64,000 bases of DNA from a candidate division WS6 bacterium GW2011_GWF2_39_15 (lineage in GTDB: Bacteria; Patescibacteriota; Dojkabacteria; SC72): contig LBWK01000002.1 of the NCBI GenBank assembly GCA_000993565.1, forward strand, positions 4,121 to 68,120, given 5' to 3'. A model generated the notes under the pieces. It was not told where the DNA came from. It did no database searches and saw only the letters and a program-made list of their open reading frames with translations. This document shows, one piece after another, positions 1 through 26,956 of this stretch; position 1 is the stretch's first letter, and each line of letters opens with the position of its first letter. A program made the position numbers and the translations under genes.

Positions 1-654
1 TTGGCGGGATTCTTCCTCTTTGCTCTTTTTGTTTCGTTATATCTTTTGCTGGTTAGTAAAAAGGAGAGGCGGTTAATTCCGTTATCCATTGCGGTAATAT
101 CTTCTATTTTTATAATCTTTACATTTGCTCGTTTAAGTATCTTTCTTACCGTTCTTATTTGGCTGGTATTTTTTATGTATAAAGCGTGGGAATTGAGAAA
201 AGCTAATTTCTCCATTCTTCCGCTTTTCTTTGAAAGGTCGTTGAATCTGTTTACCTCTGCCGACACCAGTATTCAGGACCGGGTATCTTTGCTGAAAGCC
301 TCTTTTGATATGATTAAGAGGGATCCGTTAGGGATTGGAAGTTCACAGTTTGTGGCAAATCTTAAGGATTATAGCTTGTATACATCCTCGGGGATTACTC
401 TCTTGCAGCCTGTACATAATATTTTTACCCTGGTTTTGGTTGAACACGGTTTTATTGGAGGTCTTGGGCTAATTGTTCTTTTGGGTGCATTGTTCTTCGG
501 GAAATTATTCTCAACTAAAGGAATATATAGATTTGTGACGATTGGAGCAGGGATTCTTTTTGTAAGCATAGGAATGTTTGACCACTACCTGATAACCTTG
601 CCGCAGGGGTTGGTTTTCACTTCTTTATTTGTGTCTCTCCTACAGAAGGATTAG
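1..654 (+). CDS. O-antigen ligase/polymerase (Wzy_C) family membrane protein, 5'-truncated at window edge
   Basis: Polytopic hydrophobic protein; contains the Wzy_C signature 'HNIFTLVLVEHGFIGG' (H-N-x2-L-x4-E-x-G-x2-G). Confidence 0.6.
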   Translation: MAGFFLFALFVSLYLLLVSKKERRLIPLSIAVISSIFIIFTFARLSIFLTVLIWLVFFMYKAWELRKANFSILPLFFERSLNLFTSADTSIQDRVSLLKASFDMIKRDPLGIGSSQFVANLKDYSLYTSSGITLLQPVHNIFTLVLVEHGFIGGLGLIVLLGALFFGKLFSTKGIYRFVTIGAGILFVSIGMFDHYLITLPQGLVFTSLFVSLLQKD

Positions 655-3635: not shown

Positions 3636-4037
3636 TTATAGCACAGAGCCCTGCTCGGGCTGAATGGACTTCTTTTGAAGGATATACCCGATACCCATTG
3701 TTATAGCTGGAATTACCAGGTATGTAAGACCGATGTCCTTAAAGTACTCCCCTACTGACATAGCCCATGGTCCTTTCATGAAGATGAGACAGTCAATTCC
3801 GATATTAACAAGGAAGAAAACGAGACCGAGAAAAATTCCTTCTTTGAGGAATCTTCCCCCTACTCCCTTGAAATATACAATTGAAAGAATCATTGTCGTT
3901 AATACTACAGTGACTGGCATTATAGATTCAAAAAATGGTCGATCACTTTCCCTAAGAGGAAATATCATAAATGCGACTACAAAAGGAACCAGCCAGAGAA
4001 TCAGAGAAAGAAGGAATGCTTGTTTTATAGATTTCAT
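3636..4037 (-). CDS. Small integral membrane protein, unknown function
   Basis: Four predicted TM helices; no recognisable motif. Confidence 0.4.
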   Translation of the reverse strand: MKSIKQAFLLSLILWLVPFVVAFMIFPLRESDRPFFESIMPVTVVLTTMILSIVYFKGVGGRFLKEGIFLGLVFFLVNIGIDCLIFMKGPWAMSVGEYFKDIGLTYLVIPAITMGIGYILQKKSIQPEQGSVL

Positions 4038-4211
4038 AGAATGATATTAGTTTATGGGATGATTAAAATCAATATGATTATGACCAAAGAGTCTCAGATT
4101 GGATTTTTTGATTGTTGAACTCTCCAACGATTTTAGGGCTCCAATATTCATTAAAGAGTGAAAGTTTTTGTGCAATATTTACTCCTGACATAGTTGTAAT
4201 GATTAAATATA

Positions 4212-4301
4212 TGGCGGAGAGGACAGGATTCGAACCTGCGGTACATTTTCATGTACGAACGCTTTCCAAGCGTTTCCTTTCGACCACTCAGGCACCTCTC
4301 C
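4212..4301 (-). tRNA. tRNA-Ser (anticodon GGA), 90 nt with long variable arm
   Basis: Reverse complement reads GGAGAGGTGCCTGAGTGGTCGAAAGGAAACGCTTGGAAAGCGTTCGTACATGAAAATGTACCGCAGGTTCGAATCCTGTCCTCTCCGCCA. Anticodon loop TTGGAAA; long extra arm; T-arm GGTTCGAATCC; encoded CCA. Confidence 0.85.
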
Positions 4302-4352
4302 ATAAAATACCCTGTATTATACACTTACACTTATGAAATATGATAGAGATCT

Positions 4353-6377
4353 CTAGTTGAATATCTCTTTAACCGTTATTAATATTCTTCCCTGTCTTTC
4401 CGGGAAGTATCTTAAAAATTCAGGGAAGTATTTAGGAGAAAACTCAACCTCTGTAGCTTTATCAGTATACTTCTTTGCTTTTAGTATCTTGCTCCCGTCC
4501 TTCCAGTTCTTACCCTTTATCTCTTTTATTATCTCATTTTTGTCTATTTTAGGCTTTACTTCTCCTTTTGCGACTACTTTAATCTTGATGCTGTTGCCTT
4601 TTACTTCTTCAACAGTGATCTCTTTCTGAATATTTTCATCCAATTCAAGATTAATATCCCCTTCCGTTTCAAAAAGATTTTGGTCTTGCGCCGATTTAGT
4701 TAATACTTCGTCCATTTTCGCTTCAATCTCTCCTTTTTTGAAATACATTGCGTTTCCTTTCATCTCAATTGTAACATTGACTACCTCAGCTTCGGCTCCG
4801 ACCGGAATATCCGATTTAGGGTTTCCATCAATGGCTGTTTTTAGTGTTGATGTGATTATTTCCCACCCGTTTTCCGTCCTACCGGCCAGTTCATCTTTTA
4901 ACTCCTTCTCTGTGCCTGTCTTAAGGCTTTTGACAATTTTATCCATGTCTGATTGAGAAAATACAGTATATTCTTCCTTCGATCCTCCAGTAAAGGCTCC
5001 GGTATTTTCCGCACTAAGCTCAGTGCTTGGATTATATCCTGTTACTGTGAACGCATTCCCTCCTGCCAGGTTATACTCTTCCCCTACCAGTGCCGCTCTA
5101 ACTGCGACATTCTCCTTGATGAAGAGTCCGCCCTCTCCTATTGTTACATCATTGGAAATTTCGTATTTAAGACCTCCTGATGATGTGAGTATTGTTCCGG
5201 CACTTAGTGTTACTGTAGGTTTTTCAGGAGATACACCCCAGTATTTTAGAGTGACAACCCCTTCCGCTTTATTTCCCCTGAATGCTTTACCTGTTGGAGT
5301 TGCCGTCCCTGCAGCCGTTTTACTCGCTTCCTCTTTCTTTACAGGAACAATACTATTTTCGTAATTAAACTCATTGGCTTTAATGTCACCATTAAAAATC
5401 TTTTCAACTGAAACGGGCTTACTCTCTATATATATCTTGGCTTTTACAAGTGGTGTCAGTTCGTAAATGAGCCATAAAGTTATAACAAGAGCTGCAAAGA
5501 GAGGTGCGAGAACCCTTATCAAGATCTTTTTTGAAGTGGAACTTGCAAGACCTGTGCTTAGTTTCTTAAAGAATCCTAAAATTGGTGACCCGTTTTGTGG
5601 CAGTCCTTTGACTTTTACTGGTGTAATTTTTTGGGCGGGGGTAATCTCAGCAGGCTCTTCATCTGTTGGCAAGGTGGTCATAAAAGCAATATCCCTTCCT
5701 ATTAGTGAAGGGTTTCCGGTTTTAATTGGTTTCTTTACAGGCTGGGTTAATGGCCTTGCTTCTTGAATATCCTCATCAAGGACTAATTCGAAGCCATCTT
5801 GCTGAATAACTTTTCCGGCTTTATTGTCCATGGAGTTTCGAGACCTCTCTATCGTTTCCTCGATTTTCTTTTGAAAGTCTGACTTCTCCTTTTCTACAAA
5901 TACTTCATTGCTGGGCGGTTTTATGGATCTCTCCTCTTTATTTTCAATTACCTCTTCGATTGGTTTATATCTGATATTTGAGCTATGAAGTTTTTCATCT
6001 CTTCTCTTTGTTCTTCTATTAAGACCCTTCTCTGATTCGTTCCAGTACTCGTCTAATATTGTTCCGGTTGCTTCAGTAACAGTCATTCCCGCCTCTTTGG
6101 CATTGCGTACTCCTACAGGGTTTTGTATAACTTGTGCTATTAAAGCCTTTCCTTTCTCGTCTGCACTGTCTAAAAGGACTTTCAGGTTTATAGGGCTGAT
6201 TAATATGTCGGTGGGGTCAGTAAAAGTGAGGATTATTTTGTCGGCATCTGATGAGTTAATCTTATTTATTATATCAATCAAATCATCATCTCTGCTTACA
6301 ACAAACTTCTCAATCTCTGATTTTATTTCTCTTACGTTTTCTCTATTCATTTTTCGTATTAAACTTCTTACTGTCAC
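4353..6377 (-). CDS. Large bitopic membrane protein: ~300-aa cytoplasmic N-domain, single TM, ~330-aa Gly/Thr-rich extracytoplasmic domain; unknown function
   Basis: The ORF-table start at 6377 is GTG; an ATG at 6350 lies 2 nt past the stop of the upstream actin-like gene. TM helix 'ILIRVLAPLFAALVITLWLIY'. C-terminal beta-rich repeats (GGLKYEISNDVTIGEGG..., AGGNAFTVTGYN...). Confidence 0.5.
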   Translation of the reverse strand: MTVRSLIRKMNRENVREIKSEIEKFVVSRDDDLIDIINKINSSDADKIILTFTDPTDILISPINLKVLLDSADEKGKALIAQVIQNPVGVRNAKEAGMTVTEATGTILDEYWNESEKGLNRRTKRRDEKLHSSNIRYKPIEEVIENKEERSIKPPSNEVFVEKEKSDFQKKIEETIERSRNSMDNKAGKVIQQDGFELVLDEDIQEARPLTQPVKKPIKTGNPSLIGRDIAFMTTLPTDEEPAEITPAQKITPVKVKGLPQNGSPILGFFKKLSTGLASSTSKKILIRVLAPLFAALVITLWLIYELTPLVKAKIYIESKPVSVEKIFNGDIKANEFNYENSIVPVKKEEASKTAAGTATPTGKAFRGNKAEGVVTLKYWGVSPEKPTVTLSAGTILTSSGGLKYEISNDVTIGEGGLFIKENVAVRAALVGEEYNLAGGNAFTVTGYNPSTELSAENTGAFTGGSKEEYTVFSQSDMDKIVKSLKTGTEKELKDELAGRTENGWEIITSTLKTAIDGNPKSDIPVGAEAEVVNVTIEMKGNAMYFKKGEIEAKMDEVLTKSAQDQNLFETEGDINLELDENIQKEITVEEVKGNSIKIKVVAKGEVKPKIDKNEIIKEIKGKNWKDGSKILKAKKYTDKATEVEFSPKYFPEFLRYFPERQGRILITVKEIFN

Positions 6378-7596
6378 TTATTTTATCAAGGGCAAAGAGA
6401 GTTAGCGATGCCGGAGTTATGTCATAGGTATATTTTAGCTCTTTGCTTTCGTCGGTGATTCTTGAAAGTCTGTTAGGGTATATAATTTCTATTCTAGGAA
6501 CTGAGGCAAAAGGTAGTAATTTAGTCCATGGGAATTCCATCATCACTTCTTTGATTTCAGGGAGGAGTGATCCTCCTCCGCAAAGATAGATCCTGCTCGG
6601 GAATGAGTCTCGTTCCTCAGCCGCTTCCAAAGCGGACTTAAGCGTTTTCATCCATACTTGTGCAGTTGGGTATGTAACTTTTTTCACCTGGCGTTCCAGT
6701 TTGCTATCCAATGTCTTTTCTGCGTATTTGATTTTTCGCAGTTCTGCATGTCTATAGTCTAGATTCAGTTCTTTAGCTATCTGTTTTGTAAATACACGTC
6801 CTCCAAATGCGAACATTTGAGTATCTACAACGCTTCCTCTTTGGACTACCGCAACATCAGTTGTGCCTCCTCCTATGTCTACAAATATCCCGGAAAACTC
6901 CTTGGCTCTTGCTCCCTGAAATGCTCTTGCGACGGCAAATGGTTGTGAGACAATTCCTAAAAGGTTTATCGAGAGGGACTTTGATACATTCTGTAGAGCC
7001 GAAGTATATGTTTTTGGAGCGAATGAAGCATAGAAATATAGTTTAACATCTTTGCCTCGGAATCCGACGAGTGAATCGACACTCATCCCCCCTATTTCCA
7101 TCCCGGTTATTGTTACATGAAGAATATCTATATCATCGTTTACCAGTCCCGTTCTCTTGGCTAGGTCCTCTTTCCCTGATTCGAGTATTTTATTGTGGAT
7201 TCTTGATATGATCTCAGCCTGCTCTTTTGGAGTGACCTCTTGTTCATGCTTCTGCTCTCTCTCGTAGTTCACAATTATTGAAACGCCTTGTATATACTCA
7301 CCCGCAATTCCCATCACGACATGTTTCGGGTGTCTATCAACGTCTATTCCATCCATGATCTCTCTCATTGCCAGTCGGCAGTTTTCCAGAACCGTATTTA
7401 GGTTCGTAATAATCCCTTTGTCCATAGCATTTTGCTGCTGCTGTATACGAGATACTTTTTCAACAATAATTTCCCCCTCTTTTATGGTAAAGAGGATGGC
7501 TTTTAGAACCTCAGTCCCGATATCAAGGGCAACTATTCTTTCGCCCGGTTGAATTTTTTGTTGTGATTTTTTGAACAGATTAGGCAGTGTAATCAT
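6343..7596 (-). CDS. Actin-like ATPase of the FtsA/PilM family
   Basis: 'IVALDIGTEVLKA' phosphate-1, 'FVDIGGGTTDVAV' phosphate-2, 'YLCGGGSLLP' adenosine motif. N-terminal 'LFKKSQQ' resembles PilM; length 417 aa fits FtsA. Confidence 0.65.
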   Translation of the reverse strand: MITLPNLFKKSQQKIQPGERIVALDIGTEVLKAILFTIKEGEIIVEKVSRIQQQQNAMDKGIITNLNTVLENCRLAMREIMDGIDVDRHPKHVVMGIAGEYIQGVSIIVNYEREQKHEQEVTPKEQAEIISRIHNKILESGKEDLAKRTGLVNDDIDILHVTITGMEIGGMSVDSLVGFRGKDVKLYFYASFAPKTYTSALQNVSKSLSINLLGIVSQPFAVARAFQGARAKEFSGIFVDIGGGTTDVAVVQRGSVVDTQMFAFGGRVFTKQIAKELNLDYRHAELRKIKYAEKTLDSKLERQVKKVTYPTAQVWMKTLKSALEAAEERDSFPSRIYLCGGGSLLPEIKEVMMEFPWTKLLPFASVPRIEIIYPNRLSRITDESKELKYTYDITPASLTLFALDKISDSKKFNTKNE

Positions 7597-7610
7597 ATGT
7601 AATTAGTATA

Positions 7611-9188
7611 TCATTTTTTTATTGAGACTTTCTCTGTAGCGTAGTGGTTCTTCTTAATGGTTTTACCAATCATCATCTCTGTCTGTGCCTGGACAAAAGG
7701 TATAAAGGCAAAGGTTAACATGTTTACTGTTACTAAAAGGGTTTCAACCATATCCAGGAACTTTCTGAAGAGACCCCACTCTTTAGGAAGGGGGGAAAGT
7801 TTGAGTCTGATTATATATATGGGGATGTTAAAAAACATAACCGAGGTTAGTATCAGGCTCATTATTTTGGGTAGATTGTAGGAGGCTGAACTGTATTGGA
7901 ACTCCGGGCTTACTAATGTGAGAATCGGAAGACCAAGCGTGAGGAGGTAGACGACAGTTCGGAAAATGAGCCTATCGTCAAACATAGCCATTGTTATTTT
8001 GATCCTTTTTGATAGAGGGATATTCTTATTCTTATACATTCCGGCAAAAGTCATTGGGAAAACTATTCCTCCCCATCCCCATCTGAGCTGTTGTTTGTAT
8101 AGAGACTTATGAGTTTTAACATAGGTATCATTTTCAACTGCGTCATTGTATGTTGGGATGTATACCTCTTCACCTGCAAAATCTCCGTTGAAACGAATGA
8201 GAGCATTGTAGTAGAAAGCGGTGTCGTCGTTTGGAATTTGTGGATCCCAGTACCCTACATCTTCAACGGTTTGGAGATTTGCGACATATGAGGACCAGGT
8301 CTCATTTATCTTTTTATGGAATACCCACTGGTTTAGTACTGCTAATGTTAAGAAGTTGGAAAAGGTTCGGATCAAGGTCGGGACACGGTATAGATTATTA
8401 TTAAAGGTATGAATACCTGTTGCGTAGAACTTTCTTAAGGGATTAATATCCGTTAAATATTTGTAGGTAATAGCGGATAAATATTTAGGATGAGGTCGTA
8501 AATCATTATCGCAGGTAATAAGAAGGTACTCATCAAGCCGTTCCTCTCTTTTTCTCACTCTTAAGCTGAAGTGTCTGCCTGCCCAGTTTATATTAGGGTT
8601 TTTAACTCCTGCTACTTCACCCTCAATATCAGCAGGGTGATAATATTTCACAACCTCCCTGAAATACTTTCCGTACTTTTCTTCAAGAATTGCTATGGTT
8701 TCAGAACTTTCCTCTTTGTATTTGCCTTCCAGCGCGAATACAAGAGATAGTTTCTGAGCCCCTACATCCTGCTTGCTCCACGCTTTTATTGAAGGCTCAA
8801 GCACTTCCAAGCCCTCTTTTACCACAGGACAGATAAAGACATATTTTACCTCTTTATACGGAAGTTGTTCCTTTTTCATTCTTTCTATCCAGTCTATCTT
8901 CATCTCCCTTCCCATTCTCATGTATCCGAGTGTAATTGCGACTACAAACTTAAGACCGCGAAGGGCCCAATATACGGTAAGGAAGGCTATATATATGACG
9001 AGGATTTCCGGGTATCCGGTTAACCCCACAACAAAAGGAAGAAGCAGGAAAAACCAAGTCACTAAACCGGGAATAGCTTCGAATATTTTGGTATACCATC
9101 TGGGAACATTTAACGGGTATCCATTAAATCGGTCTTTGAGTTTAACGTCTTCAGGATTTAATGTCTCTTGCGGAGTCCCTACGTCCAT
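7611..9188 (-). CDS. Processive family-2 glycosyltransferase (cellulose/chitin/hyaluronan-synthase-like) with N- and C-terminal TM segments
   Basis: 'ITCDNDL' (DxD), 'IPNDDTAFYY' (third Asp) and 'YKQQLRWGWGG' (QxxRW) in the order expected for processive GT2 synthases. TM helices flank the catalytic domain. Confidence 0.65.
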   Translation of the reverse strand: MDVGTPQETLNPEDVKLKDRFNGYPLNVPRWYTKIFEAIPGLVTWFFLLLPFVVGLTGYPEILVIYIAFLTVYWALRGLKFVVAITLGYMRMGREMKIDWIERMKKEQLPYKEVKYVFICPVVKEGLEVLEPSIKAWSKQDVGAQKLSLVFALEGKYKEESSETIAILEEKYGKYFREVVKYYHPADIEGEVAGVKNPNINWAGRHFSLRVRKREERLDEYLLITCDNDLRPHPKYLSAITYKYLTDINPLRKFYATGIHTFNNNLYRVPTLIRTFSNFLTLAVLNQWVFHKKINETWSSYVANLQTVEDVGYWDPQIPNDDTAFYYNALIRFNGDFAGEEVYIPTYNDAVENDTYVKTHKSLYKQQLRWGWGGIVFPMTFAGMYKNKNIPLSKRIKITMAMFDDRLIFRTVVYLLTLGLPILTLVSPEFQYSSASYNLPKIMSLILTSVMFFNIPIYIIRLKLSPLPKEWGLFRKFLDMVETLLVTVNMLTFAFIPFVQAQTEMMIGKTIKKNHYATEKVSIKK

Positions 9189-9192
9189 TTCT

Positions 9193-10863
9193 TTAAATGA
9201 TCACAGGTAATATTATCGGCTCTCTTTCAGTCTTTTTTCTTATATATCTGGCGATGTTTCTCTCCAATTCATCATAAAGGAGCTGTTCAGTTACTTTTCT
9301 GGAGTTTCTCATCTCCTGCAGCCATTTCCTGTGCACGTCCACAACAATATTCTCAATCTCTTTTAGAAGATTCTGGGAAGTTTTCATGTATACAAATCCT
9401 CTTGAGATAAATCTGGGACGCCCAAGAAGCTGTTTGGTCTTCTGACTAATATTTAAAATAACGCAGAACATACCGTACTGAGAAAGCTGAGCCCTATCTT
9501 TAAGGACTATATCTCCAATGTCACCTACTCCCAGTCCGTCTATAAGTATAGGTTTGGATTCTACCTTGATTCCTCTCTTTACGTTTGAGTTGTTTAATGT
9601 CCAAGTTTGTCCGTCTTCAGTTAATAGAATGTCGTTAGGATTATGTCCCCAATTTATATAGTTCTTTTTGCTCTGGTATCTAAAGGTTAAACTCCCGTGA
9701 ATTGGCATAATATACTTGGGATTAAGCATGCTGTTGAGTATTTTCATATCCTCCTGCAGACCATGGCCGCTTGAGTGTACACTTGCTTCCGCGTTGTTGA
9801 TCAGATCCATCCCCTGTCGAATAAGGAGGTCTGTCATTCTCCCTATCTTCTCTTCGTTACCGGGAACTTCAGATGCTGACATTATTACCAAATCTCCAGG
9901 CTTTCCTTTAATATAGAGGTGTTCTCCAAGTGCAATTCTGTTTAATGCTGCATATCTTTCACCCTGACTTCCTGTGCTTAGTATCATTATCTGATCATCA
10001 GGATAGTTCTTTATCTGTTTTTCTGTAATGAATATGCTGTCGTTAACATCTATGTACTTGTAGTATCGTGCCACTCTCATTGTTGTGTGCAGGCTTCGCC
10101 CGGATAGAACCACCTTTCTGTTGGTTTCCTGTGCAATTTTGATCATAGAGGCAAGTCGGGTTACAAGTGAAGCAAATGCCGCTACTATAATTCTTCCTTT
10201 ATGTTTCTGGATTATTTCTCTGGTTGTCTGTACTGCGGTTTGTTCGGGGAGAGCTCTTCCTTCTCTATATACGTTTGTACTGTCATAGAGTGCAAGGTCA
10301 ACCTTCCCTTTTATACTGTTTAAGGCCTCTATGTCCATTAACTCCTCGTCTATCTTGTAGTCTCCTGAGAAGAATATTGACCCTTCCGGAGATTTTACAA
10401 ATATCGAGAATGAATCGGGGATGCTGTGGGTTGTAGTTATGTACTGTATATCAAAGTCTCCAAGCTTGAATTGAGTCGTGTCTTTAATTTCTACAAACTT
10501 GACTCGTCTATCCAGTCCTTTTTCAATGAGCTTTTCCTTCATTATTGCTATAGCGAACGGTCCTGCATATATAGGAGGGAACCCTAAATCCTCAATAATG
10601 TATGGAATCGCCCCTATGTGATCCAAGTGTCCATGGGTTATGAGAATAGCTTTGATATTCTTTCTTTTTGCTTTTAGCTCTTTGATACTTGGAATGAGGT
10701 AATCAATGCCGTACATTTCTTGACCGGGGAATGAAAATCCTGCGTCTATAACCAGTATTTGATTATTGTATTCAATATAATTACAGTTTCTTCCACCTGT
10801 TTCGTTTGTACCAGAAAGGGTACAGAGGGTTAAGCCTCCATCTTTTCGTTTAAAATAATTCAT
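9193..10863 (-). CDS. rnj: Ribonuclease J (metallo-beta-lactamase/beta-CASP RNase)
   Basis: 'ILITHGHLDHIGA' HxHxDH motif; beta-CASP and C-terminal domain; 556 aa. Confidence 0.85.
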   Translation of the reverse strand: MNYFKRKDGGLTLCTLSGTNETGGRNCNYIEYNNQILVIDAGFSFPGQEMYGIDYLIPSIKELKAKRKNIKAILITHGHLDHIGAIPYIIEDLGFPPIYAGPFAIAIMKEKLIEKGLDRRVKFVEIKDTTQFKLGDFDIQYITTTHSIPDSFSIFVKSPEGSIFFSGDYKIDEELMDIEALNSIKGKVDLALYDSTNVYREGRALPEQTAVQTTREIIQKHKGRIIVAAFASLVTRLASMIKIAQETNRKVVLSGRSLHTTMRVARYYKYIDVNDSIFITEKQIKNYPDDQIMILSTGSQGERYAALNRIALGEHLYIKGKPGDLVIMSASEVPGNEEKIGRMTDLLIRQGMDLINNAEASVHSSGHGLQEDMKILNSMLNPKYIMPIHGSLTFRYQSKKNYINWGHNPNDILLTEDGQTWTLNNSNVKRGIKVESKPILIDGLGVGDIGDIVLKDRAQLSQYGMFCVILNISQKTKQLLGRPRFISRGFVYMKTSQNLLKEIENIVVDVHRKWLQEMRNSRKVTEQLLYDELERNIARYIRKKTEREPIILPVII

Positions 10864-10907
10864 GGGAGTATTATAGCATTAAAAGAGTCTCTATAAAGTC
10901 TCAACTA

Positions 10908-11480
10908 TTATTTATTACCAATCGTAATAAGGAATTTTATTATCTGCAGCAGGGTTGTTTTGTATTTTCCTACCTCATATTGTTCTCTTAGATTTTTGAA
11001 TTGTTGAGGTTTGTCGGAGGTATTTTGATATACAAGACGCTTTAATAATTGGGCAACTATTTTAGAGTGATCAGGATTTCCCTTGAAACTCCACCCCATG
11101 ACTTCTATAAAGTCCATAAGTCCTAGATAATGTCCTTCATTAATTTGCTCAATAGCTTGACTACCGTTGGCAACAAATTGCTCCGAATACAAAATAGTTT
11201 CGGCAGGATTAAAAGGTATGTATACCCAAAAGTGAGTTTTATTATTAAAGCCCAATTTATCAACATAGTTAGTGGTTGCACGGTCTTGTTTAGTAGCAAA
11301 TACTAAAGTTCCCAAATACTGACCTTGAGAAATATTTGCTATTTGTTCTATTCTAAGACCTTTGCCAGCGGTTCTAGATATACTATCGGCATTTTCACCT
11401 ATTAGTATTTCCAGATCGTGTTCGTCGAGTACACGTAACTCGTTATCTGAGGGGCCAGTTTTATTATTAAAAAAGCTCAT
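10908..11480 (-). CDS. Hypothetical protein (no recognisable domain)
   Basis: 190-aa ORF, good coding appearance; co-oriented, with 40-50 nt gaps to neighbours. Confidence 0.4.
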   Translation of the reverse strand: MSFFNNKTGPSDNELRVLDEHDLEILIGENADSISRTAGKGLRIEQIANISQGQYLGTLVFATKQDRATTNYVDKLGFNNKTHFWVYIPFNPAETILYSEQFVANGSQAIEQINEGHYLGLMDFIEVMGWSFKGNPDHSKIVAQLLKRLVYQNTSDKPQQFKNLREQYEVGKYKTTLLQIIKFLITIGNK

Positions 11481-11529: not shown

Positions 11530-12144
11530 TTATGGTTTAGCTGTAAGCCCTAGACTCAAAGCTAAATGAATTAGCCTGACTTGATCATCATGAGAAATTG
11601 TTTTCGGAAGTACATCATGTACTCCCATATATCCCGTTGAATTATCCTTCTTCCCGCTATCCACGAAGTCTGAGAGAATATTTGCAAGCACCAGTAGTAG
11701 TTGATTTATAGATTCTGGTTGTTCAGTGATTCTTCCATGAATTTCTTCTGCCGTATCAAGAACAATTTGGTTTTTATATCTATCAACAAAAGTTAGCTGT
11801 GGGAAGTTAAAGGCCATGGTGGTTAAGTTTCTTTTATGAACCTTCTCTACTGTTGCATCAAAATAATTGGGCATTTGATTAAAATAGAACATCGTAGATC
11901 CGAGTATTTCATTAATGGCGTACTCGCCGGACTTTAAATTCCATACACGATTTTGAAACACCCCACTTGAAAACCCATATGTCTCCCTATAGAAAAGTCC
12001 GAAAACCATATTTGCGAATAGTGTGGTATTAAAGTCATTTAACACCTCAGGCGACTCAGCAAGCTTGACAGCTAGATCAGCTACCTTGTCAGAATTGAAC
12101 CCTTCTCTTATCTTTGCGACATCAAATTGTTTGGTATCTCCCAT
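11530..12144 (-). CDS. Hypothetical protein (no recognisable domain)
   Basis: 204-aa ORF, co-directional with the rnj block. Confidence 0.4.
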   Translation of the reverse strand: MGDTKQFDVAKIREGFNSDKVADLAVKLAESPEVLNDFNTTLFANMVFGLFYRETYGFSSGVFQNRVWNLKSGEYAINEILGSTMFYFNQMPNYFDATVEKVHKRNLTTMAFNFPQLTFVDRYKNQIVLDTAEEIHGRITEQPESINQLLLVLANILSDFVDSGKKDNSTGYMGVHDVLPKTISHDDQVRLIHLALSLGLTAKP

Positions 12145-12209: not shown

Positions 12210-13169
12210 ATGACATATCCAAAAGTTACTGTCAAAAGTGGAAAAGATATTGATTCTATTAACTATCTTCATACTTATGAAGCGGCAAAAGCAGCCTTTT
12301 TTCAGTCCAAAAAGTACATCATTCTCCCCTATATTCCTATGCAGAAAAGAATAGCGGGAAAAACAATATTTCTTCCAAGAATATCTAGAAAAATGGGAGC
12401 CGGTATAAAATATACGGAGTTGATTGACTATATGAAGTTTCCCAAGATCAACGAAAACAAGTATAGGGAATATATAACCCGAAACTTTAAGGCATTCTGG
12501 AAAGACCTCATTAAAATACTGGGAGAAGAAAAACTGTCGCGGATCAAAAATATTGAGGTATGGATAACTCATATAGGATCCGGCGGGCGGGCTTTTACAG
12601 AGATGGGTGATAACAGTAGGATAGTTGTAATTATGAGGAAGGATATGATTCTCCAGCAAATCTTTTCTTTAGTTATAATGGAGGTACTCCCCTATATTGG
12701 CTACAAAGAATCATATACATGGGAAGAGACCACGGCTATAAGAGAATGGCTAGTAGAATCTACTGTCTTGAATAAATACTTCCCTGTGCATACTCCGATG
12801 CTTGATTCACTAAGAGAGAGGAAGCAGCAGGCGAAGTATTTGCTTGATAGTGATAAATATCTTCAAGAAATTGGAATAAAAGGATATGTAAAAATCCTTA
12901 ATAATGAGGTCTTAGTTGATAATACTAAGATTGTATTGGGAGAAAAGGAAACCTTACTTTTCTCCCTTCTGCTTTCTCGGAAGGGTGGTCTGGTTGATTA
13001 CGATATAATATTCAAAGAGGTATGGGGAAGTAATATTGAAAAGTTCTCTTTATATGCAATAACAAAACTTGTTGAGAGAATAAGGAAGAAACTTCTAAAT
13101 GCAGGTATTTCGGAGGATATAATTCATACGTATAAAGGTAAAGGATATTATATTGGTAGCAGTTTTTAA
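12210..13169 (+). CDS. Transcriptional regulator with C-terminal OmpR/PhoB-type winged-helix DNA-binding domain and non-receiver N-terminal domain
   Basis: C-terminus 'LGEKETLLFSLLLSRKGGLVDYDIIFKEVWGSN...LYAITKLVERIRKKLL...IHTYKGKGYYI' matches trans_reg_C. The N-terminal ~200 aa has no Asp-pocket receiver features. Confidence 0.6.
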   Translation: MTYPKVTVKSGKDIDSINYLHTYEAAKAAFFQSKKYIILPYIPMQKRIAGKTIFLPRISRKMGAGIKYTELIDYMKFPKINENKYREYITRNFKAFWKDLIKILGEEKLSRIKNIEVWITHIGSGGRAFTEMGDNSRIVVIMRKDMILQQIFSLVIMEVLPYIGYKESYTWEETTAIREWLVESTVLNKYFPVHTPMLDSLRERKQQAKYLLDSDKYLQEIGIKGYVKILNNEVLVDNTKIVLGEKETLLFSLLLSRKGGLVDYDIIFKEVWGSNIEKFSLYAITKLVERIRKKLLNAGISEDIIHTYKGKGYYIGSSF

Positions 13170-23255: not shown

Positions 23256-26200
23256 TTATTTTGTATTCCAAATAATATTGTATTTCAGATCCGAAGTGAG
23301 TTTGGTCTGGCTTAGTAACTGATTTAGTACACCGTCCATCGTGTCATTATTCACAACTGCCCAGGTATCCGGGTATGTAATGTTGATTGAGGTTGGGTCA
23401 TCAAACGTTCCGGGTTGTTTATAGATGTTGAGTGCAAGACTTATATCCTCATTATTAACTGTAATAGGTTTGTAAGTACTGTTTTTGCCTATATTGTATT
23501 TAATTTCAAAATTTCTGGATGATTGAATTGGTACATTAAGCCATCCGCCGATAACCTTGTACCCTTTTTCTAAATATATCTGGTAATCGCTGTCACTAAA
23601 TCCTTTAACGGATTTTATCTGAGCATTTTCCGGCATATAGACTCTAAGGTAGTTTGAATAATCTCCCTGAGGATATATCTTGGAAGTTGCAGTGTTTCTT
23701 ATTGCAAGTTGATATGTATAATCAACGCTTTCGGTATCGAAAATATCTATATTTATGGATCTGCTCCTCTCAATCTTATTATTTACCTTATTAGCTCCCC
23801 AGTTCCATTCAATTGAGAACGGAGCGGACTTGTAATCATTGAGAAGTGTTCCTGACCATCCATTTTCACTTAGATATTCAAAAGCATCGCGGTTTTTAAG
23901 GTATATATTTAAATGCTTCTGTTCTAGTGAATCCATCACTACCGTACTAATTTTTGAATATTCAGGGACTTCAGCTGTTAGAAGTTTCTGGAGGGATGTG
24001 TTTGCCAGGTTAGCAAGAAATGGAGCTTTAAGACTTTCCCCCGGCTTAAACTCTTTATGAAGAGCCGATATCTTGTCATCAAGATTATCTGCAGTAATTG
24101 GCTGAGTTTCTCCCGGAATTATTACCTCGCCCCATACTCCGAGAAGACTTTTCAGAACTTCCGTGTCTATGGTTATAACTCCGTCAATTTTAACTCCCGG
24201 GTCAATTTCGTTGAGTAGTTTTTCATCTAGATCCGACACCCCTTTAAGATCCGGATCCCAGTTAGATAGTGAAAAGGTTTGAAGATCAACCCCAAGGGCA
24301 CGTTTCATCGAGAGAGGTGTCGACATCTTTATATCTGCATTGATAAGTTCACCGTCAATATTGTAGATATCATCTACTTTTAGTTCTCTTATCTGTCCCC
24401 CTTCAAATGCAACAAGCGCATAGCTTGACGGCCACCCTCCGGTGCTTCTTAGTTCCGCAGGATTCTGAAGCAGTATTAGATATCGTACCCGTTGTTCAAT
24501 TCCCAATATGTCAGGAAGAAATGTGACAACTTTTTCCAATGGAATTATCTGTTCTCCTAGTTGGTCATTATATGATTTTAACTGGGCGATATAGTTTTGT
24601 AGTGATACAGGAAAAGTATTTGTCTTTACTGTATCAATTAAATCTGAAGCTATATTTAAATCGTAGACACCTTTTTGGAGGAGGGATCTGTTCTGTTTAA
24701 GTGACACAAGATAGTCTCGATACTCACGGCTTGATGATGGAAGAGTATTTTGAAAGTTCAAAGCGGGTTTGAAGTTCGTGAGATACATGGCAAGCGGCTC
24801 AACTGCGGAAGCGACATCCTTTGCACCACTTACTGCGTACTGTGAGGCAAATATCAGCTGAGATACATTATCGTAGGTGTCCTGTGCTCCTGTAACGGCA
24901 AACATCCACTTTGTTCTGCCAAAAGCCCCGCTTACCTTGTCAATATACTCCTCGGATTTCTCCAAGCTTTTTTCTGCTTTGGTTAGTTCCAGTTGAGAGG
25001 CTTGTTCCTTGGCTGCCATCAGGTTTTTATAGGCAAGATATCCTCCTGCTGATACTGTGAGTATTGGGTAGAGCACAAAGATGATGAAGAGGAATGCAGC
25101 AATCCCTATTATAACCAGTTGAGCAATTTTCCCTTTGGTCAGGCTACCTTTGAACTTTTCCCAGCTGTTAGTGGAGGATCTTGTTAATAGCTTGAATGGA
25201 CGGGATAGAATATCAAAAAAGTCGCCAAGCGGAGTCTTTACACTTTTCACCCTGATAGTTTCTTCGGATTTCTCTTGAGGGGCTGGTTTCTCAAGGCTCT
25301 TTTTTATTATTTGACCTGTTTTAGGGTACAGCGTTTCTATTGTCTCTACTATTGACTGCTCTAATGTAATAGCCTGTTTCCAGCCGTAGTTGCTGGCATT
25401 TGGAGCCGGTGTGTAGTGTTCAAAGCTTATGTATTCCTCTTTATTGGTTGCCGGTCCGAATTTAATCTCGCTTATTTCGGGATTTATCTCCAGAAGCTTG
25501 TAGGCGAGAGAGAGGGTAGTATAGTCGTGATTATTGGCAAGAGATATAACTTCCCCCTCCGTTTGAGAAGAGAAGGTGAGCTTAAGTATTCCGTATATAG
25601 CATCGTCGATATTGAGAAGGTAGTGAAGCTCAAGTCCTTCACCGGCAATTGTGATATATCCTCTGTTTGAGCTTTCAGAAATCATATCATTGAGTATGGG
25701 ATCCCGCAGGGTTTCGATTTCAGTACCAAGAAGTGTTCCCAGCCGGATTATTCTTGCGTTGAGCTTGGATTTATCCCTGTATTCCGCTGTCAAAGTCTCA
25801 CAATATTTCTGAAGCTCAATGGCTGAGTATGGTGACGGAGCAGATAGATTATTATTAAGAATATGGGCTGACAGCTGTTCGTTAAGCTTGATTGTTGTTA
25901 TCAGAGCAAACTTTGAATCGCTTTTCTGTGAAGCCTTCAAAGTGTGGTTCAGGTAATTGGACTCCTCCAAAAAATCTTTGCTAGAGAAGCTTCTTTGAAT
26001 ATTCAGGTATTCTTCAAGAATGTAGTATACATAATCAATTCTATTTATGGTTTTAAATAGGGACTCGATTCCAGTAAAGTCTATGAAGTCGGCTGTTCCG
26101 AGTTTTTTGAGCTCGGAAATATACTTTTTAGACTCCGAGTTGAAGTGGTCAACAATAATTACCTTTCCTCCTTGTTCAAGGAGTGTTTTAGCAAGCTTGA

Positions 26201-26276
26201 ATCCTAATGGATTTCCTCCATGGACTAGGAGGGAGACAGTAGTACTTAATTTTACGTCGCTATATTTGCTTGCCAT
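23256..26276 (-). CDS. 1006-aa fusion protein: N-terminal NAD(P)-binding Rossmann (epimerase/dehydratase-like) domain, single TM, ~600-aa extracytoplasmic domain
   Basis: 'VSLLVHGGNPLGFKLAKTLLEQGGKVIIVD' glycine-rich NAD-binding loop; TM 'IAQLVIIGIAAFLFIIFVLYPIL'; long C-terminal non-repetitive domain. Confidence 0.45.
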   Translation of the reverse strand: MASKYSDVKLSTTVSLLVHGGNPLGFKLAKTLLEQGGKVIIVDHFNSESKKYISELKKLGTADFIDFTGIESLFKTINRIDYVYYILEEYLNIQRSFSSKDFLEESNYLNHTLKASQKSDSKFALITTIKLNEQLSAHILNNNLSAPSPYSAIELQKYCETLTAEYRDKSKLNARIIRLGTLLGTEIETLRDPILNDMISESSNRGYITIAGEGLELHYLLNIDDAIYGILKLTFSSQTEGEVISLANNHDYTTLSLAYKLLEINPEISEIKFGPATNKEEYISFEHYTPAPNASNYGWKQAITLEQSIVETIETLYPKTGQIIKKSLEKPAPQEKSEETIRVKSVKTPLGDFFDILSRPFKLLTRSSTNSWEKFKGSLTKGKIAQLVIIGIAAFLFIIFVLYPILTVSAGGYLAYKNLMAAKEQASQLELTKAEKSLEKSEEYIDKVSGAFGRTKWMFAVTGAQDTYDNVSQLIFASQYAVSGAKDVASAVEPLAMYLTNFKPALNFQNTLPSSSREYRDYLVSLKQNRSLLQKGVYDLNIASDLIDTVKTNTFPVSLQNYIAQLKSYNDQLGEQIIPLEKVVTFLPDILGIEQRVRYLILLQNPAELRSTGGWPSSYALVAFEGGQIRELKVDDIYNIDGELINADIKMSTPLSMKRALGVDLQTFSLSNWDPDLKGVSDLDEKLLNEIDPGVKIDGVITIDTEVLKSLLGVWGEVIIPGETQPITADNLDDKISALHKEFKPGESLKAPFLANLANTSLQKLLTAEVPEYSKISTVVMDSLEQKHLNIYLKNRDAFEYLSENGWSGTLLNDYKSAPFSIEWNWGANKVNNKIERSRSINIDIFDTESVDYTYQLAIRNTATSKIYPQGDYSNYLRVYMPENAQIKSVKGFSDSDYQIYLEKGYKVIGGWLNVPIQSSRNFEIKYNIGKNSTYKPITVNNEDISLALNIYKQPGTFDDPTSINITYPDTWAVVNNDTMDGVLNQLLSQTKLTSDLKYNIIWNTK

Positions 26277-26914
26277 TATTTGCTCTCCTTTATCTCTATA
26301 GGTATCGGGAATAGATAGGCTTTGACATTTAAGTTATACCCTTCTTCCACAACAATTGGAAACTCCAGATCTTCATATCCTGATTTATTAATTTTCAATG
26401 TGTATGACTTCGGATTTGCAAGGTATGCATTTATTGGGGCTCTGCTTGCATATTCACCGTCAATATAGACAGTGGCCTCTTCGGGTTCCGTCGTAACACT
26501 GAGGTATCCTTTATCATTGTTTTTTGGAGATTCAGTGTAGTATAGAATATATCCCGAAGTGATGTTTTCAGGGGCAATTTCAAGGTCAATGATAGCTTCG
26601 GTATTTCTTTCCAGTTCTATTTGCACAAATCTGTCTTCGTAGGCATCTGTTACATCAGATACTCTTTTGAGCCTGAATCGATACTCTCCCGGTTTTAGAT
26701 CTGATATTGTAACGGGGGTTTCTCCATAGCTTTTAGACTCAAGGAACACTTCAGCCTTCCCTTTCCTTGCGGTGATTGTAACTGTTGTATTGTTATAGAA
26801 TTGGTTTAAGTATGGGATTTGTGACACTAGCTTTTCAAAGGGTACGAAAAGTGCCGCTACTATTATTAGCACAGCAAGAACTATGAGTATTGTGGCAGTT
26901 TTTAAACTCGGCAT
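26276..26914 (-). CDS. PEGA-domain secreted/anchored protein
   Basis: N-terminal TM/signal; two PEGA-like units ('AEVFLESKSYGETPVTISDLKPGEYRFRL', 'ATVYIDGEYASRAPINAYLANPKSYTLKINKSGYEDLEF'). Confidence 0.5.
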   Translation of the reverse strand: MPSLKTATILIVLAVLIIVAALFVPFEKLVSQIPYLNQFYNNTTVTITARKGKAEVFLESKSYGETPVTISDLKPGEYRFRLKRVSDVTDAYEDRFVQIELERNTEAIIDLEIAPENITSGYILYYTESPKNNDKGYLSVTTEPEEATVYIDGEYASRAPINAYLANPKSYTLKINKSGYEDLEFPIVVEEGYNLNVKAYLFPIPIEIKESK

Positions 26915-26956
26915 ATTTTGATTATATGCTAGCCAATACGCTATGTCTACAAGATA

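What the first reader, a model, noticed from the sequence alone, without database searches (positions are those of the whole stretch)
4353..6377. 674-aa bitopic protein with unusual architecture immediately after the actin-like ATPase
No recognisable motif. The N-terminal ~300 aa are cytoplasmic and highly charged. A single TM helix follows. The ~330-aa C-terminal region has repeated G-rich beta-strand-like segments (…GGLKYEISNDVTIGEGG… / …AGGNAFTVTGYN…) reminiscent of phage baseplate/tail-fibre-like beta structures. The start is either a GTG overlapping the upstream gene or an ATG 2 nt after its stop, which implies translational coupling.
Basis: inference. Interest (0 to 1): 0.55.

Follow-up and report, generated by a model that had tools for sequence, protein, structure and literature searches.

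The report
Membrane partner of an FtsA-like actin
This is a real, widely conserved but unstudied membrane-spanning protein that always sits directly after an FtsA/PilM-like actin gene in ultra-small (CPR) bacteria and some Chloroflexota; it probably links that cytoplasmic ATPase to the cell wall, and it carries one small beta-barrel domain also found in phage baseplates.

Summary
The ORF is a real gene. The true start is the ATG at 6350, giving 665 aa, and it overlaps the stop of the upstream actin-like gene by 8 nt.

- **Anatomy.** Cytoplasmic alpha/beta domain (res 10-105, the best-conserved part). Then about 150 aa of disordered, charged linker with short conserved motifs, one TM helix (about 275-297), and a confidently modelled 370-aa ectodomain (pLDDT 94).
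- **Baseplate likeness.** Only about 105 residues of the ectodomain (353-464) match anything known. This is the beta-barrel of baseplate wedge proteins of the J/gp47 type, also present in GlxA. The rest has no confident match.
- **Not a phage element.** The locus is housekeeping chromosome, with no sheath, tube or spike genes.
- **Synteny.** The family is Dojkabacteria-wide. In all 81 related loci that retain upstream DNA, the gene directly follows the same actin-like gene. Distant 540-614-aa relatives in other Patescibacteria and a Chloroflexota-like genome keep the pairing and sit directly before ruvX-mltG.

Best reading, by inference: a RodZ/PilN/FtsN-style bitopic adaptor that holds an FtsA-family ATPase at the membrane and couples it to the envelope, probably in division or wall growth. 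No published description was found. Binding and function are untested.

The parts
4353..6350 (-). Gene for the 665-aa bitopic protein. The start is the ATG at 6350 and the stop codon is 4353-4355.
   Evidence: ORF list. The start is set by the alignment of 42 homologues. There are 72 full-length homologues at E<=1e-86.
6036..6323 (-). N-terminal cytoplasmic alpha/beta domain (res 10-105). It has four parallel-type beta strands alternating with helices and the signature LTFxExxDLLISPINLKVLL...NPxGxRNAKxAG.
   Evidence: AF2 pLDDT is about 90, with strands E13-18, E38-43, E69-74, E90-92. It is the best-conserved region, at 53% mean pairwise identity against 20-25% for the linker. An HMM of this domain finds the N-termini of 14 distant members, nine at E 6e-8 to 2e-3 and five weaker, up to E=0.3. 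There is no Pfam or PDB sequence match. Foldseek gives only generic flavodoxin/Rossmann-like hits at E about 0.02-0.05.
5586..6035 (-). Long basic helix (res 106-126), then a disordered, charged linker (res 127-255). The linker carries short conserved islands: SxFQKKIEE helix (res 158-175), FELVLDEDI (res 190-198) and SLIGRDI (res 222-228).
   Evidence: pLDDT is below 50 for residues 127-154, 177-220 and 223-255. F159, D192 and D194 are at least 90% conserved in an otherwise variable region. The same hxhxxGGDI and hxGRDh motifs are visible in distant members P0190, P0200, P0210, P0214 and P0228.
5457..5585 (-). Juxtamembrane helix (res 256-267, PILGFFKKL) and the single transmembrane helix (about res 275-297, KILIRVLAPLFAALVITLWLIYE).
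   Evidence: This is the only hydrophobic segment in the protein (KD 19-mer maximum 2.38 at residues 276-277). AF2 predicts helices 256-267 and 271-298.
5295..5456 (-). Membrane-proximal long beta-hairpins of the ectodomain (res 299-352).
   Evidence: The ectodomain model has strands E6-14, E16-27 and E39-55 with pLDDT 84-98. Mean pairwise identity is 48%.
4959..5294 (-). Gly-rich beta-barrel (res 353-464), homologous to the barrel of baseplate wedge proteins (P2 J / Mu gp47 / diffocin TRI-2) and of GlxA. Signatures: ATGxAxxGxKAxGxV, VGEEYN, GGSKEEY.
   Evidence: PHROGs phrog_6 matches residues 370-460 at E=3.4e-7. Pfam Baseplate_J matches homologues over model positions 21-113 of 255. The Pfam GlxA beta-barrel model matches distant members. 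PDB profile hit 8v3w_E, E=1.4e-7. Foldseek superposes 9ki1_O over 105 columns at rmsd 2.9 A and 22% identity.
4356..4958 (-). C-terminal alpha/beta part of the ectodomain (res 465-665): a long helix, then beta-sheet/helix units, ending in the conserved FPxxLRxFPxRQGRI.
   Evidence: pLDDT is 86-98. It is conserved into the distant clades (HMM E down to 9e-6 for P0233; pairwise alignment to the Chloroflexota-like P0234 runs from the TM helix to the C-terminus). No confident PDB fold match.
6343..7596 (-). Upstream partner gene: a 417-aa actin-fold ATPase of the FtsA/PilM clade.
   Evidence: Pfam FtsA 59 bits, PilM_2 41 bits. TIGR01174 ftsA scores 86 bits, below its cutoff of 175. Nearest PDB sequences are PilM 3jc8 (E=1.9e-10) and FtsA 3wt0 (E=1.3e-7). 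The nucleotide-binding motifs DIGTE, DxGGGTxD and CGGG are invariant in 20 orthologues. Orthologues are 55-84% identical across the loci.
6343..6350 (-). 8-nt overlap (ATGAATAG) of the start codon with the stop of the actin-like gene.
   Evidence: Sequence read directly. In orthologous pairs the spacing is -35 to +7 nt in nearly all cases.
7611..9188 (-). 525-aa polytopic GT2-like glycosyltransferase in the same tightly packed gene string. It is present only in the sub-clade closest to this window.
   Evidence: Pfam Glyco_trans_2_3 at 25.6 bits, just under its cutoff. It is found between RNase J and the actin-like gene in 8 of 85 loci.
9193..10863 (-). RNase J gene, the first gene of the apparent four-gene string. 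It is the conserved upstream neighbour throughout Dojkabacteria.
   Evidence: Pfam RNase_J domains. The best promoter-like match on this strand in 3950-11100 lies at 10897-10870 (10 of 12, TG-extended). This is a consensus match only, and the number of sites is not above the shuffles.

Best explanation
The gene encodes the membrane-spanning partner of a divergent FtsA/PilM-family actin-like ATPase. The two are made from one transcript with overlapping stop and start codons.

The protein inserts N-in/C-out through one TM helix.
- Its conserved N-terminal alpha/beta domain sits in the cytoplasm on a flexible, charged tether of about 150 residues. That domain, possibly helped by the short conserved motifs in the tether, binds the actin-like protein and holds it at the membrane.
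- Its rigid 370-residue ectodomain projects into the cell wall. The ectodomain is built around a beta-barrel of the kind found in baseplate wedge proteins and GlxA.

The pair therefore works like MreB-RodZ, PilM-PilN or FtsA-FtsN. The nucleotide or polymer state of an actin-like protein inside the cell is coupled to a structure or enzyme outside it.

The most likely process is cell division or peptidoglycan growth.

**Shown:** gene reality, domain anatomy, barrel homology, strict gene pairing across deep lineages, and operon-like linkage to ruvX-mltG in relatives.

**Inferred:** topology, physical binding to the actin-like protein, and the cellular process.
For: 1. **Pairing.** The actin-like gene is the immediate upstream neighbour in all 81 loci that retain upstream DNA, out of the 85 then held: 80 GTDB species representatives plus 5 fetched earlier. 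The spacing is -35 to +7 nt. The same holds in four distant loci where the protein is only about 22% identical.

2. **Selection pattern.** The cytoplasmic N-domain is the most conserved part (53% against 42-48% for the ectodomain and 20-25% for the linker). This parallels the high conservation of the actin-like protein (55-84%). The N-domain is retained in distant clades.

3. **Membrane anchoring.**
   - The 56 Dojkabacteria actin-like proteins lack a C-terminal amphipathic helix (maximum hydrophobic moment 0.45 +/- 0.11; 0.35 in this window).
   - The orthologues in the other clades have one (0.71-0.79, like the E. coli FtsA membrane-targeting helix at 0.78, whose sequence I took from memory).
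   - So in Dojkabacteria the bitopic partner is the obvious way to reach the membrane.
   - These are also the members with the long motif-bearing linker.

4. **Intact ATPase.** The actin-like protein keeps intact nucleotide-binding motifs.

5. **Process.**
   - In the distant clades the gene is followed at 6-7 nt, or with an overlap of 4-8 nt, by ruvX and then mltG/yceG, and in three of the four loci then by LysM/CHAP hydrolase genes.
   - Public pipelines label the partner FtsA (IMG) or PilM (PGAP).
   - In Nanosynbacter TM7x a single 'ftsA' (TM7x_02800) lies away from ftsZ (TM7x_00785), and pilM is a separate gene (PMC10768705).

6. **Not another known pair.** A genuine RodZ (HTH_25 + RodZ_C) is elsewhere in the window. 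There are no type IV pilus genes at the locus.
Against: - No direct evidence of binding. The co-folding test could not be run.
- The N-domain has no informative fold match. It gives only generic flavodoxin/Rossmann-like hits.
- No ftsZ or other divisome gene is adjacent, here or in any fetched locus.
- I could not check whether these genomes carry a second, canonical ftsA next to ftsZ.
- In Dojkabacteria the neighbours are RNase J and sometimes a glycosyltransferase, not cell-wall genes.
- alaS-ruvX-mltG is a widely conserved string in its own right, so linkage to mltG may be positional.
- The ectodomain has no recognisable peptidoglycan-binding module (no LysM, SPOR, PASTA or POTRA).
Confidence: 0.5

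Rival explanations
1. It is an elaborated PilN-like alignment-complex protein. The actin-like protein is a PilM, and the pair belongs to a type IV pilus, competence or type II secretion-like machine.
For: NCBI's pipeline names several orthologues of the partner 'pilus assembly protein PilM'. The best PDB sequence hit of the partner is M. xanthus PilM (E=1.9e-10). PilM-PilN shares the same logic of an actin-fold protein plus a bitopic partner encoded just downstream. One distant locus has two N_methyl (pilin-like) genes about 4 kb upstream.
Against: No PilN, PilO, GspL or GspM match by Pfam in any of 42 members at E<=1, nor among the top 50 Foldseek hits for the ectodomain. No pilB, pilC or pilT genes appear at this locus or in the 85 related loci. 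CPR genomes have separate co-localised PilM/PilN/PilO/PilB/PilC clusters (PMC6744442), and TM7x has separate pilM and ftsA genes. PilN's cytoplasmic part is a short peptide, not a 100-aa domain plus a 150-aa linker (my own knowledge).
Confidence: 0.12
2. It is an extracellular glycan or surface-layer factor. The ectodomain acts on or binds a polysaccharide made by the neighbouring GT2 synthase, by analogy with the membrane-anchored, barrel-containing GlxA that works with CslA in Streptomyces. The actin-like protein positions it.
For: A polytopic GT2-like synthase lies directly upstream in the same gene string. The barrel matches the Pfam 'GlxA beta barrel domain' in distant members and GlxA structures by Foldseek (4unm E=8e-5). 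The window is rich in envelope genes (DUF4012-epimerase, PEGA, GT4, Wzy_C, MurJ).
Against: The GT2 gene is present in only 8 of 85 loci, and the pair is conserved without it. Only the barrel of GlxA is shared, with no copper-oxidase or kelch domain. No carbohydrate-binding or catalytic motif is conserved. The invariant residues are mostly Gly, Pro and Asn.
Confidence: 0.13
3. The two genes are neighbours for reasons of operon organisation only, and the proteins do not interact. The bitopic protein has an independent function, for example an adhesin or host-contact protein of an episymbiont.
For: No interaction data exist. CPR genomes are compact, with many overlapping unrelated genes. The ectodomain is large and could be a surface-exposed binding module.
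Against: Adjacency and order survive from Dojkabacteria to a 72%-GC Chloroflexota-like genome while all other neighbours change. The cytoplasmic domain, not the exposed ectodomain, is the most conserved part, which is the opposite of what is expected for a host-contact adhesin.
Confidence: 0.12
4. It is a remnant or domesticated component of a phage tail, tailocin or contractile injection system baseplate.
For: All significant fold and profile hits are baseplate wedge proteins or GlxA. One orthologue is named 'baseplate J/gp47 family protein' by NCBI.
Against: Only about 105 of 665 residues match. The Pfam match covers positions 21-113 of 255, and whole-ectodomain TM-scores are 0.21-0.25. The protein has a TM helix and a cytoplasmic domain. 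There are no sheath, tube, spike or gpI/gp48-type genes nearby. The window is core chromosome (RNase J, LeuRS, MetRS, RpoD, DnaG, FtsK, RpoBC, DnaK, GroEL). Synteny is stable across a class-level lineage. There is no PADLOC hit.
Confidence: 0.03

Closest known systems
MreB-RodZ (actin homologue plus bitopic adaptor)
   Same: The partner has the same overall plan: a folded cytoplasmic N-terminal domain, then a charged juxtamembrane or linker region, a single TM helix, and a beta-rich extracytoplasmic domain. It works with an actin-fold protein. (RodZ architecture is from my own knowledge. The window's own RodZ shows HTH_25 + RodZ_C.)
   Different: There is no HTH domain and no RodZ_C domain. 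The linker is much longer and the ectodomain much larger (370 aa). The actin partner belongs to the FtsA/PilM clade, not MreB. A true RodZ exists separately at 32019-32975.
PilM-PilN (type IV pilus alignment subcomplex) and GspL
   Same: An actin-fold protein without a membrane anchor of its own is encoded directly upstream of a bitopic protein that tethers it. The partner here scores for PilM_2 and for M. xanthus PilM.
   Different: PilN uses a short N-terminal peptide and a small ferredoxin-like periplasmic domain (my own knowledge). Here there is a 100-aa domain, a 150-aa linker and a 370-aa ectodomain with no PilN/PilO signal. No pilus genes are adjacent.
FtsA with its bitopic divisome partners (FtsN, ZipA)
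   Same: The partner is co-linear with FtsA over residues 21-309 (TIGR01174) and is called FtsA by IMG. Orthologues outside Dojkabacteria carry an FtsA-like C-terminal amphipathic helix. The arrangement of globular domain, long flexible charged tether and TM helix mirrors ZipA. FtsN binds FtsA through its cytoplasmic tail (PMC7613929, listed; the ZipA comparison is my own knowledge).
   Different: There is no SPOR domain and no ZipA FtsZ-binding domain. The gene is not in a dcw cluster or next to ftsZ. The FtsA score is well below the family cutoff (86 against 175 bits).
Baseplate wedge proteins of the J family (P2 gpJ, Mu gp47, diffocin TRI-2/CD1371, T4 gp6, T6SS TssF; Pfam PF04865, phrog_6)
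   Same: The beta-barrel of about 105 residues is homologous: sequence-profile E=1.4e-7 to TRI-2, phrog_6 E=3.4e-7, Foldseek rmsd 2.9-3.9 A at 20-23% identity.
   Different: The rest of the wedge protein is not recovered as a rigid match, including the helical core-bundle segment and the dimerisation domains. Those parts of the comparison are my own knowledge of wedge proteins. The protein is membrane-anchored, has a cytoplasmic domain, and is chromosomal with no tail genes.
GlxA of Streptomyces lividans (membrane-anchored copper oxidase; Pfam PF21110 barrel)
   Same: It is a cellular, membrane-anchored extracytoplasmic protein containing the same type of barrel.
   Different: No oxidase or kelch domain and no copper ligands were identified. 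Only the barrel is shared.

Membership tests
Baseplate J / gp47 family (Pfam PF04865) | Match to the family model above the gathering score and over most of its length | tested here: not met
   The window protein has no Pfam hit even at E<=1. Homologues score 17-31 bits (cutoff 21.1) and cover only model positions 21-113 of 255.
Baseplate J / gp47 family (Pfam PF04865) | Whole-protein fold equivalence to solved wedge proteins | tested here: not met
   The ectodomain-only model (pLDDT 94) gives TM 0.21-0.25. Tight superposition covers only 103-112 residues. Alignments longer than 330 columns have rmsd of 29-43 A.
Baseplate J / gp47 family (Pfam PF04865) | Shares the characteristic beta-barrel domain | tested here: met
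Baseplate J / gp47 family (Pfam PF04865) | Encoded among tail or contractile-system genes (sheath, tube, spike, gpI/gp48-type partner) | tested here: not met
   The neighbours are RNase J, GT2, an actin-like ATPase, tRNA-Ser and NUDIX. The rest of the window is housekeeping. The same holds in 85 related loci.
PilN (Pfam PF05137) / PilO / GspL-GspM | Sequence or fold match of the extracytoplasmic domain | tested here: not met
PilN (Pfam PF05137) / PilO / GspL-GspM | Encoded directly downstream of a PilM-type actin-fold gene | tested here: met
   The partner is equally FtsA-like.
PilN (Pfam PF05137) / PilO / GspL-GspM | Clustered with pilB, pilC, pilO or pilin genes | tested here: not met
   The only exception is two N_methyl genes about 4 kb away in one distant locus.
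RodZ | N-terminal HTH (HTH_25) and RodZ_C domain | tested here: not met
   No hit. The true RodZ is at 32019-32975.
FtsN / FtsQ-DivIB / ZipA type divisome anchors | SPOR, POTRA or ZipA_C domains, and location in a dcw cluster or next to ftsZ | tested here: not met
   No such Pfam hits. No FtsZ signature in the window or in any locus.
Actin-fold ATPase + bitopic adaptor pairs (functional class, not a sequence family) | Direct binding of the adaptor's cytoplasmic part to the actin-fold protein | not testable with these tools
Only indirect evidence is available.

The most novel reading that the evidence does not exclude
The pair is an ancient, previously unrecognised core module of the cell-division or wall-growth machinery. 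It is shared by Patescibacteria (CPR) and Chloroflexota.

In it, the lineage's only FtsA-family protein works through a dedicated bitopic partner. That partner's ectodomain is a new fold built around a baseplate-type barrel, and it engages the peptidoglycan machinery, for example MltG.

The module would functionally replace FtsN/ZipA-type anchors that these bacteria lack. In Dojkabacteria, the partner would have taken over membrane anchoring from the lost FtsA amphipathic helix.
Probability: 0.3. Interest if true: 0.75.

Novelty: new variant of a known kind. Interest (0 to 1): 0.55.

Why it matters
How CPR/Patescibacteria divide and build their envelope is largely unknown. They are a large share of bacterial diversity, with tiny cells and reduced genomes, and many canonical divisome parts are not annotated in them.

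This gene pair gives a concrete, testable candidate, for three reasons:
- it stays adjacent from Dojkabacteria to a Saccharimonadia-like lineage and a Chloroflexota-like genome;
- one member is what annotation pipelines call 'FtsA';
- in relatives it is linked to mltG.

Relatives appear to occur in lineages that include cultivable, genetically tractable Saccharibacteria.

It also corrects a misleading public label. 'Baseplate J/gp47 family protein' suggests a prophage gene, but only one small barrel is shared. The shift between having and lacking the amphipathic tail in the actin-like protein, set against the different linkers in the partner, is a small natural experiment in how actin homologues reach the membrane.

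Tried and rejected
**Tests that could not be run**
- Co-folding of the actin-like protein with the N-domain. I built 56 paired sequences from the loci and aligned 20 fusion constructs.
- A more divergent alignment (A2) was too variable to seed the genome scan, so I used A1 instead.

**Searches that came back empty**
- Pfam, NCBIfam and PADLOC on the protein itself: nothing.
- Profile against PDB sequences: only the barrel.
- FtsZ signature (GGGTGS/TG) in the window and all loci: none. The relation to ftsZ could not be addressed.
- Literature (5 searches, 5 papers opened): no description of this pair or of 'baseplate J' proteins in CPR.
- Cluster look-ups gave organism names for few distant relatives. 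The taxonomy of the distant clades rests on two neighbour-protein clusters.

**Readings considered and rejected**
- Prophage or tailocin remnant, rejected on context.
- Two fused genes, rejected because one continuous confident architecture is conserved in hundreds of clusters.
- GTG start at 6377, rejected because homologues start at the ATG.
Full report
**1. What is in the sequence**

- The mechanical ORF 4353..6377 (-) of 674 aa exists.
- In an alignment of 42 homologues, every sequence starts at the position of the internal ATG at 6350 (MNRENVREIKSEIEKFVV...), not at the GTG. The gene is therefore 4353..6350 and the protein is 665 aa.
- The ATG lies within the last codons of the upstream gene (AAA AAT GAA TAG, stop at 6345-6343), so the overlap is 8 nt.
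- Gene packing on this strand is tight. RNase J (9193-10863), a GT2-like membrane protein (7611-9188), the actin-like gene (6343-7596) and this gene are separated by 4 nt, 14 nt and -8 nt.
- tRNA-Ser(GGA) follows at 4212-4301.
- The best promoter-like match on this strand in the scanned stretch 3950-11100 lies just upstream of RNase J. It is a consensus match only.

**2. Anatomy**

AlphaFold2 with a 42-sequence alignment gave a model of mean pLDDT 78.

| Region (res) | Feature | Confidence / note |
|---|---|---|
| about 10-105 | alpha/beta domain, four strands alternating with helices | pLDDT about 90 |
| 100-125 | long basic helix | |
| 127-255 | disordered, except a helix at 158-175 | pLDDT below 50 for most of it |
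| 256-267 | juxtamembrane helix | |
| 271-298 | transmembrane helix | |
| 300-665 | structured ectodomain | |

- Hydropathy shows a single hydrophobic segment.
- There is no N-terminal signal peptide, and the long N-terminal part is lysine/arginine-rich. An N-in/C-out orientation is therefore the likely topology. This is an inference.
- A second model of residues 296-665 alone, with 63 sequences, reached pLDDT 94.2 and pTM 0.74. The ectodomain is one rigid, well-defined body.
- Its parts are membrane-proximal beta-hairpins (299-352), a Gly-rich beta-barrel (353-464) and an alpha/beta C-terminal part (465-665).
- Mean pairwise identity by region: N-domain 53%, ectodomain parts 42-48%, linker and TM 20-26%.
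- Short islands inside the linker are conserved. F159, D192 and D194 are at least 90% conserved. The motifs recur in distant members.

**3. What the ectodomain resembles**

- The protein itself hits nothing in Pfam or NCBIfam.
- PHROGs phrog_6 'baseplate wedge subunit' matches residues 370-460 (E=3.4e-7; 33 of 42 family members match).
- 31 of 42 members hit Pfam Baseplate_J weakly, always over model positions about 21-113 of 255.
- Some distant members instead hit the Pfam 'GlxA beta barrel domain'.
- A family profile finds diffocin TRI-2 (8v3w) among PDB sequences at E=1.4e-7 over 78 residues.
- Foldseek with the ectodomain model finds 14 PDB chains at E<=1e-3. Twelve are baseplate wedge proteins (phi812, diffocin, Mu gp47, cyanophage A-1(L), phiCD508, Milano, 7-7-1) and two are GlxA entries.
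- Good superpositions are confined to 103-112 residues (rmsd 2.9-3.9 A, 20-23% identity). Overall TM-scores are 0.21-0.25. The alignments of more than 330 columns have rmsd of 29-43 A.
- BFVD gives the same result.

**4. Where it occurs and what it travels with**

- The closest relatives (32-65% identity, full length) are from Candidatus Dojkabacteria (WS6).
- A profile search of 1.84 billion cluster representatives found 921 proteins at E<1e-30 and 7508 at E<1e-3. Most of the top 150, down to E about 1e-47, are matched over nearly the full profile; the remainder are fragments or partial matches.
- Eighty species-representative genomes carry it.
- Of the 85 loci then held (those 80 plus 5 fetched earlier), every one of the 81 that retains upstream DNA has the same actin-like gene immediately upstream (55-84% identical to the window's). 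RNase J lies before that wherever enough upstream sequence is held. The GT2 gene is inserted in only 8 loci.
- Start-stop spacing of the pair is -35 to +7 nt in nearly all cases.
- Walking outward from a distant member reached proteins of 540-614 aa. These keep the N-domain, the TM helix, the barrel and the C-terminal part.
- All four of their loci examined have an FtsA/PilM-like gene directly upstream. They have ruvX and then mltG(yceG) directly downstream, at 6-7 nt or with an overlap of 4-8 nt. alaS lies upstream in three of the four loci, and LysM/CHAP genes follow in those same three.
- One of these loci is 72% GC, and a neighbouring protein clusters at 90% identity with a Candidatus Limnocylindrales (Chloroflexota) protein. 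Another clusters with 'Patescibacteria group bacterium' proteins on contigs of about 0.9 Mb.
- The two-gene module is therefore much older than Dojkabacteria, and it keeps its order while everything around it changes.

**5. The partner**

- The 417-aa protein is an actin-fold ATPase with invariant phosphate-binding and adenosine motifs.
- It is about equally distant from FtsA and PilM:
  - Pfam FtsA 59 bits, PilM_2 41 bits;
  - TIGR ftsA 86 bits over residues 21-309, against a cutoff of 175;
  - PDB PilM E=1.9e-10, FtsA E=1.3e-7.
- Public annotation is inconsistent: FtsA, PilM, 'rod shape-determining'.
- The orthologues outside Dojkabacteria end in an amphipathic helix (hydrophobic moment 0.71-0.79). 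This is like the E. coli FtsA membrane-targeting helix (0.78; sequence from memory).
- The 56 Dojkabacteria orthologues do not have one (0.45 +/- 0.11; 0.35 in this window).
- The Dojkabacteria versions of the bitopic protein are the ones with the long, motif-bearing linker.

**6. Most likely mechanism**

The protein is the membrane adaptor of this actin-like ATPase. Its cytoplasmic domain, and perhaps the linker motifs, bind the ATPase. The TM helix anchors the complex, and the ectodomain reaches into the wall.

Known systems that work this way are MreB-RodZ, PilM-PilN and FtsA-FtsN/ZipA. The resemblance is one of logic and layout, not of sequence. Every membership test for those partner families failed:
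- no HTH or RodZ_C, and the real RodZ is at 32019-32975;
- no PilN/PilO signal;
- no SPOR, POTRA or ZipA domains.

The cellular process is less certain. Division or wall growth is favoured for three reasons:
- the partner is FtsA-like, and has an FtsA-type tail in other clades;
- the module sits in an operon-like string with mltG and wall hydrolases in relatives;
- in TM7x the only annotated ftsA lies away from ftsZ, while pilM is a separate gene (PMC10768705).

Binding, topology and process are all inferred, not shown.

**7. Rivals**

- **A pilus/PilN-like role.** It is weakened by the absence of pilus genes and of any PilN/PilO signal.
- **A glycan-related role with the adjacent GT2 synthase (GlxA analogy).** It fits this window, but the GT2 gene is absent from most loci.
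- **Mere adjacency without interaction.** This is hard to square with the depth of conservation, or with the cytoplasmic domain being the most conserved part.
- **A phage or tailocin remnant.** It is excluded by context. The window is core chromosome: LeuRS, MetRS, RpoD, DnaG, KsgA, RodZ, FtsK, RpoB/C, HrcA-GrpE-DnaK, GroEL, MurJ. There are no tail genes and no defence-system hits.

**8. Novelty**

- I found no paper that describes this pair or discusses 'baseplate J' proteins of CPR bacteria. The library searched is incomplete.
- The family is known only as 'hypothetical protein' or, misleadingly, 'baseplate J/gp47 family protein'.
- I rate it a new variant of a known kind of system (actin-fold ATPase plus bitopic adaptor). 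It has an undescribed cytoplasmic domain and an ectodomain that is new apart from one barrel.

Noticed in passing
window 7611-9188 (-): A 525-aa polytopic GT2-like glycosyltransferase (Glyco_trans_2_3 at 25.6 bits, just under its cutoff; faint PgaC/IcaA similarity). It is wedged between RNase J and the actin-like gene. It occurs there in only 8 of 85 related loci, so it is a lineage-specific insertion into a conserved gene string.
   Followed up: partly
window 6343-7596 (-), compared with L086 5700-6998, L087 5733-6998, L088 2206-3468, L089 6737-7999: The actin-like partner has an FtsA-like C-terminal amphipathic helix in the Saccharimonadia-like and Chloroflexota-like orthologues (hydrophobic moment 0.71-0.79). 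The helix is missing in all 56 Dojkabacteria orthologues (0.45 +/- 0.11). This may be a loss of self-anchoring compensated by the bitopic partner.
   Followed up: partly
window 32019-32975 (-) and 32990-35173 (-): A genuine RodZ homologue (HTH_25 + RodZ_C) with a Glucodextran_B-like domain inserted between the two. It lies directly downstream of FtsK and directly upstream of DnaG on the minus strand. This implies an MreB-type elongation system in this small genome.
   Followed up: no
window 23256-28198 (-): An envelope gene cluster. It contains a 1006-aa fusion of an NAD-dependent epimerase/dehydratase domain with DUF4012, a PEGA-domain protein (26276-26914) and a GT4 (MraY/WecA-type) transferase (26957-28198). 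DUF4012 is one of the families Meheust et al. 2019 list as enriched in CPR and Gram-positive bacteria (PMC6744442).
   Followed up: no
window 10908-11480 (-) and 11530-12144 (-): Two proteins of 190 and 204 aa with no Pfam match lie just upstream of RNase J. Genes of similar size with no Pfam hits on record occupy the corresponding position, on the opposite strand to RNase J, in a distant Dojkabacteria locus (L001 2267-3452).
   Followed up: no
window 12210-13169 (+): A 319-aa protein with only a C-terminal OmpR-type winged-helix DNA-binding domain (Trans_reg_C) and no receiver domain.
   Followed up: no
L062 (LNJE01000029.1) and many loci titled 'uncultured Candidatus Saccharibacteria': One homologue sits on a contig binned as the archaeon Candidatus Methanofastidiosum, which is probably a binning contaminant. 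Many loci whose proteins are typical of Dojkabacteria carry the record title 'uncultured Candidatus Saccharibacteria', so the titles are not reliable taxonomy.
   Followed up: no
window 4212-4301 (-): tRNA-Ser (anticodon GGA) lies 51 nt downstream of the gene's stop codon on the same strand. It marks the end of the protein-coding string.
   Followed up: no
window 50092-52371 (+) and 1-654 (+): Two Wzy_C/O-antigen-ligase-like membrane proteins. The first is fused to C-terminal TPR repeats. The second is inferred from its sequence only. Orthologous Dojkabacteria loci also carry a Wzy_C gene a few kb from the pair (L001, L005).
   Followed up: no
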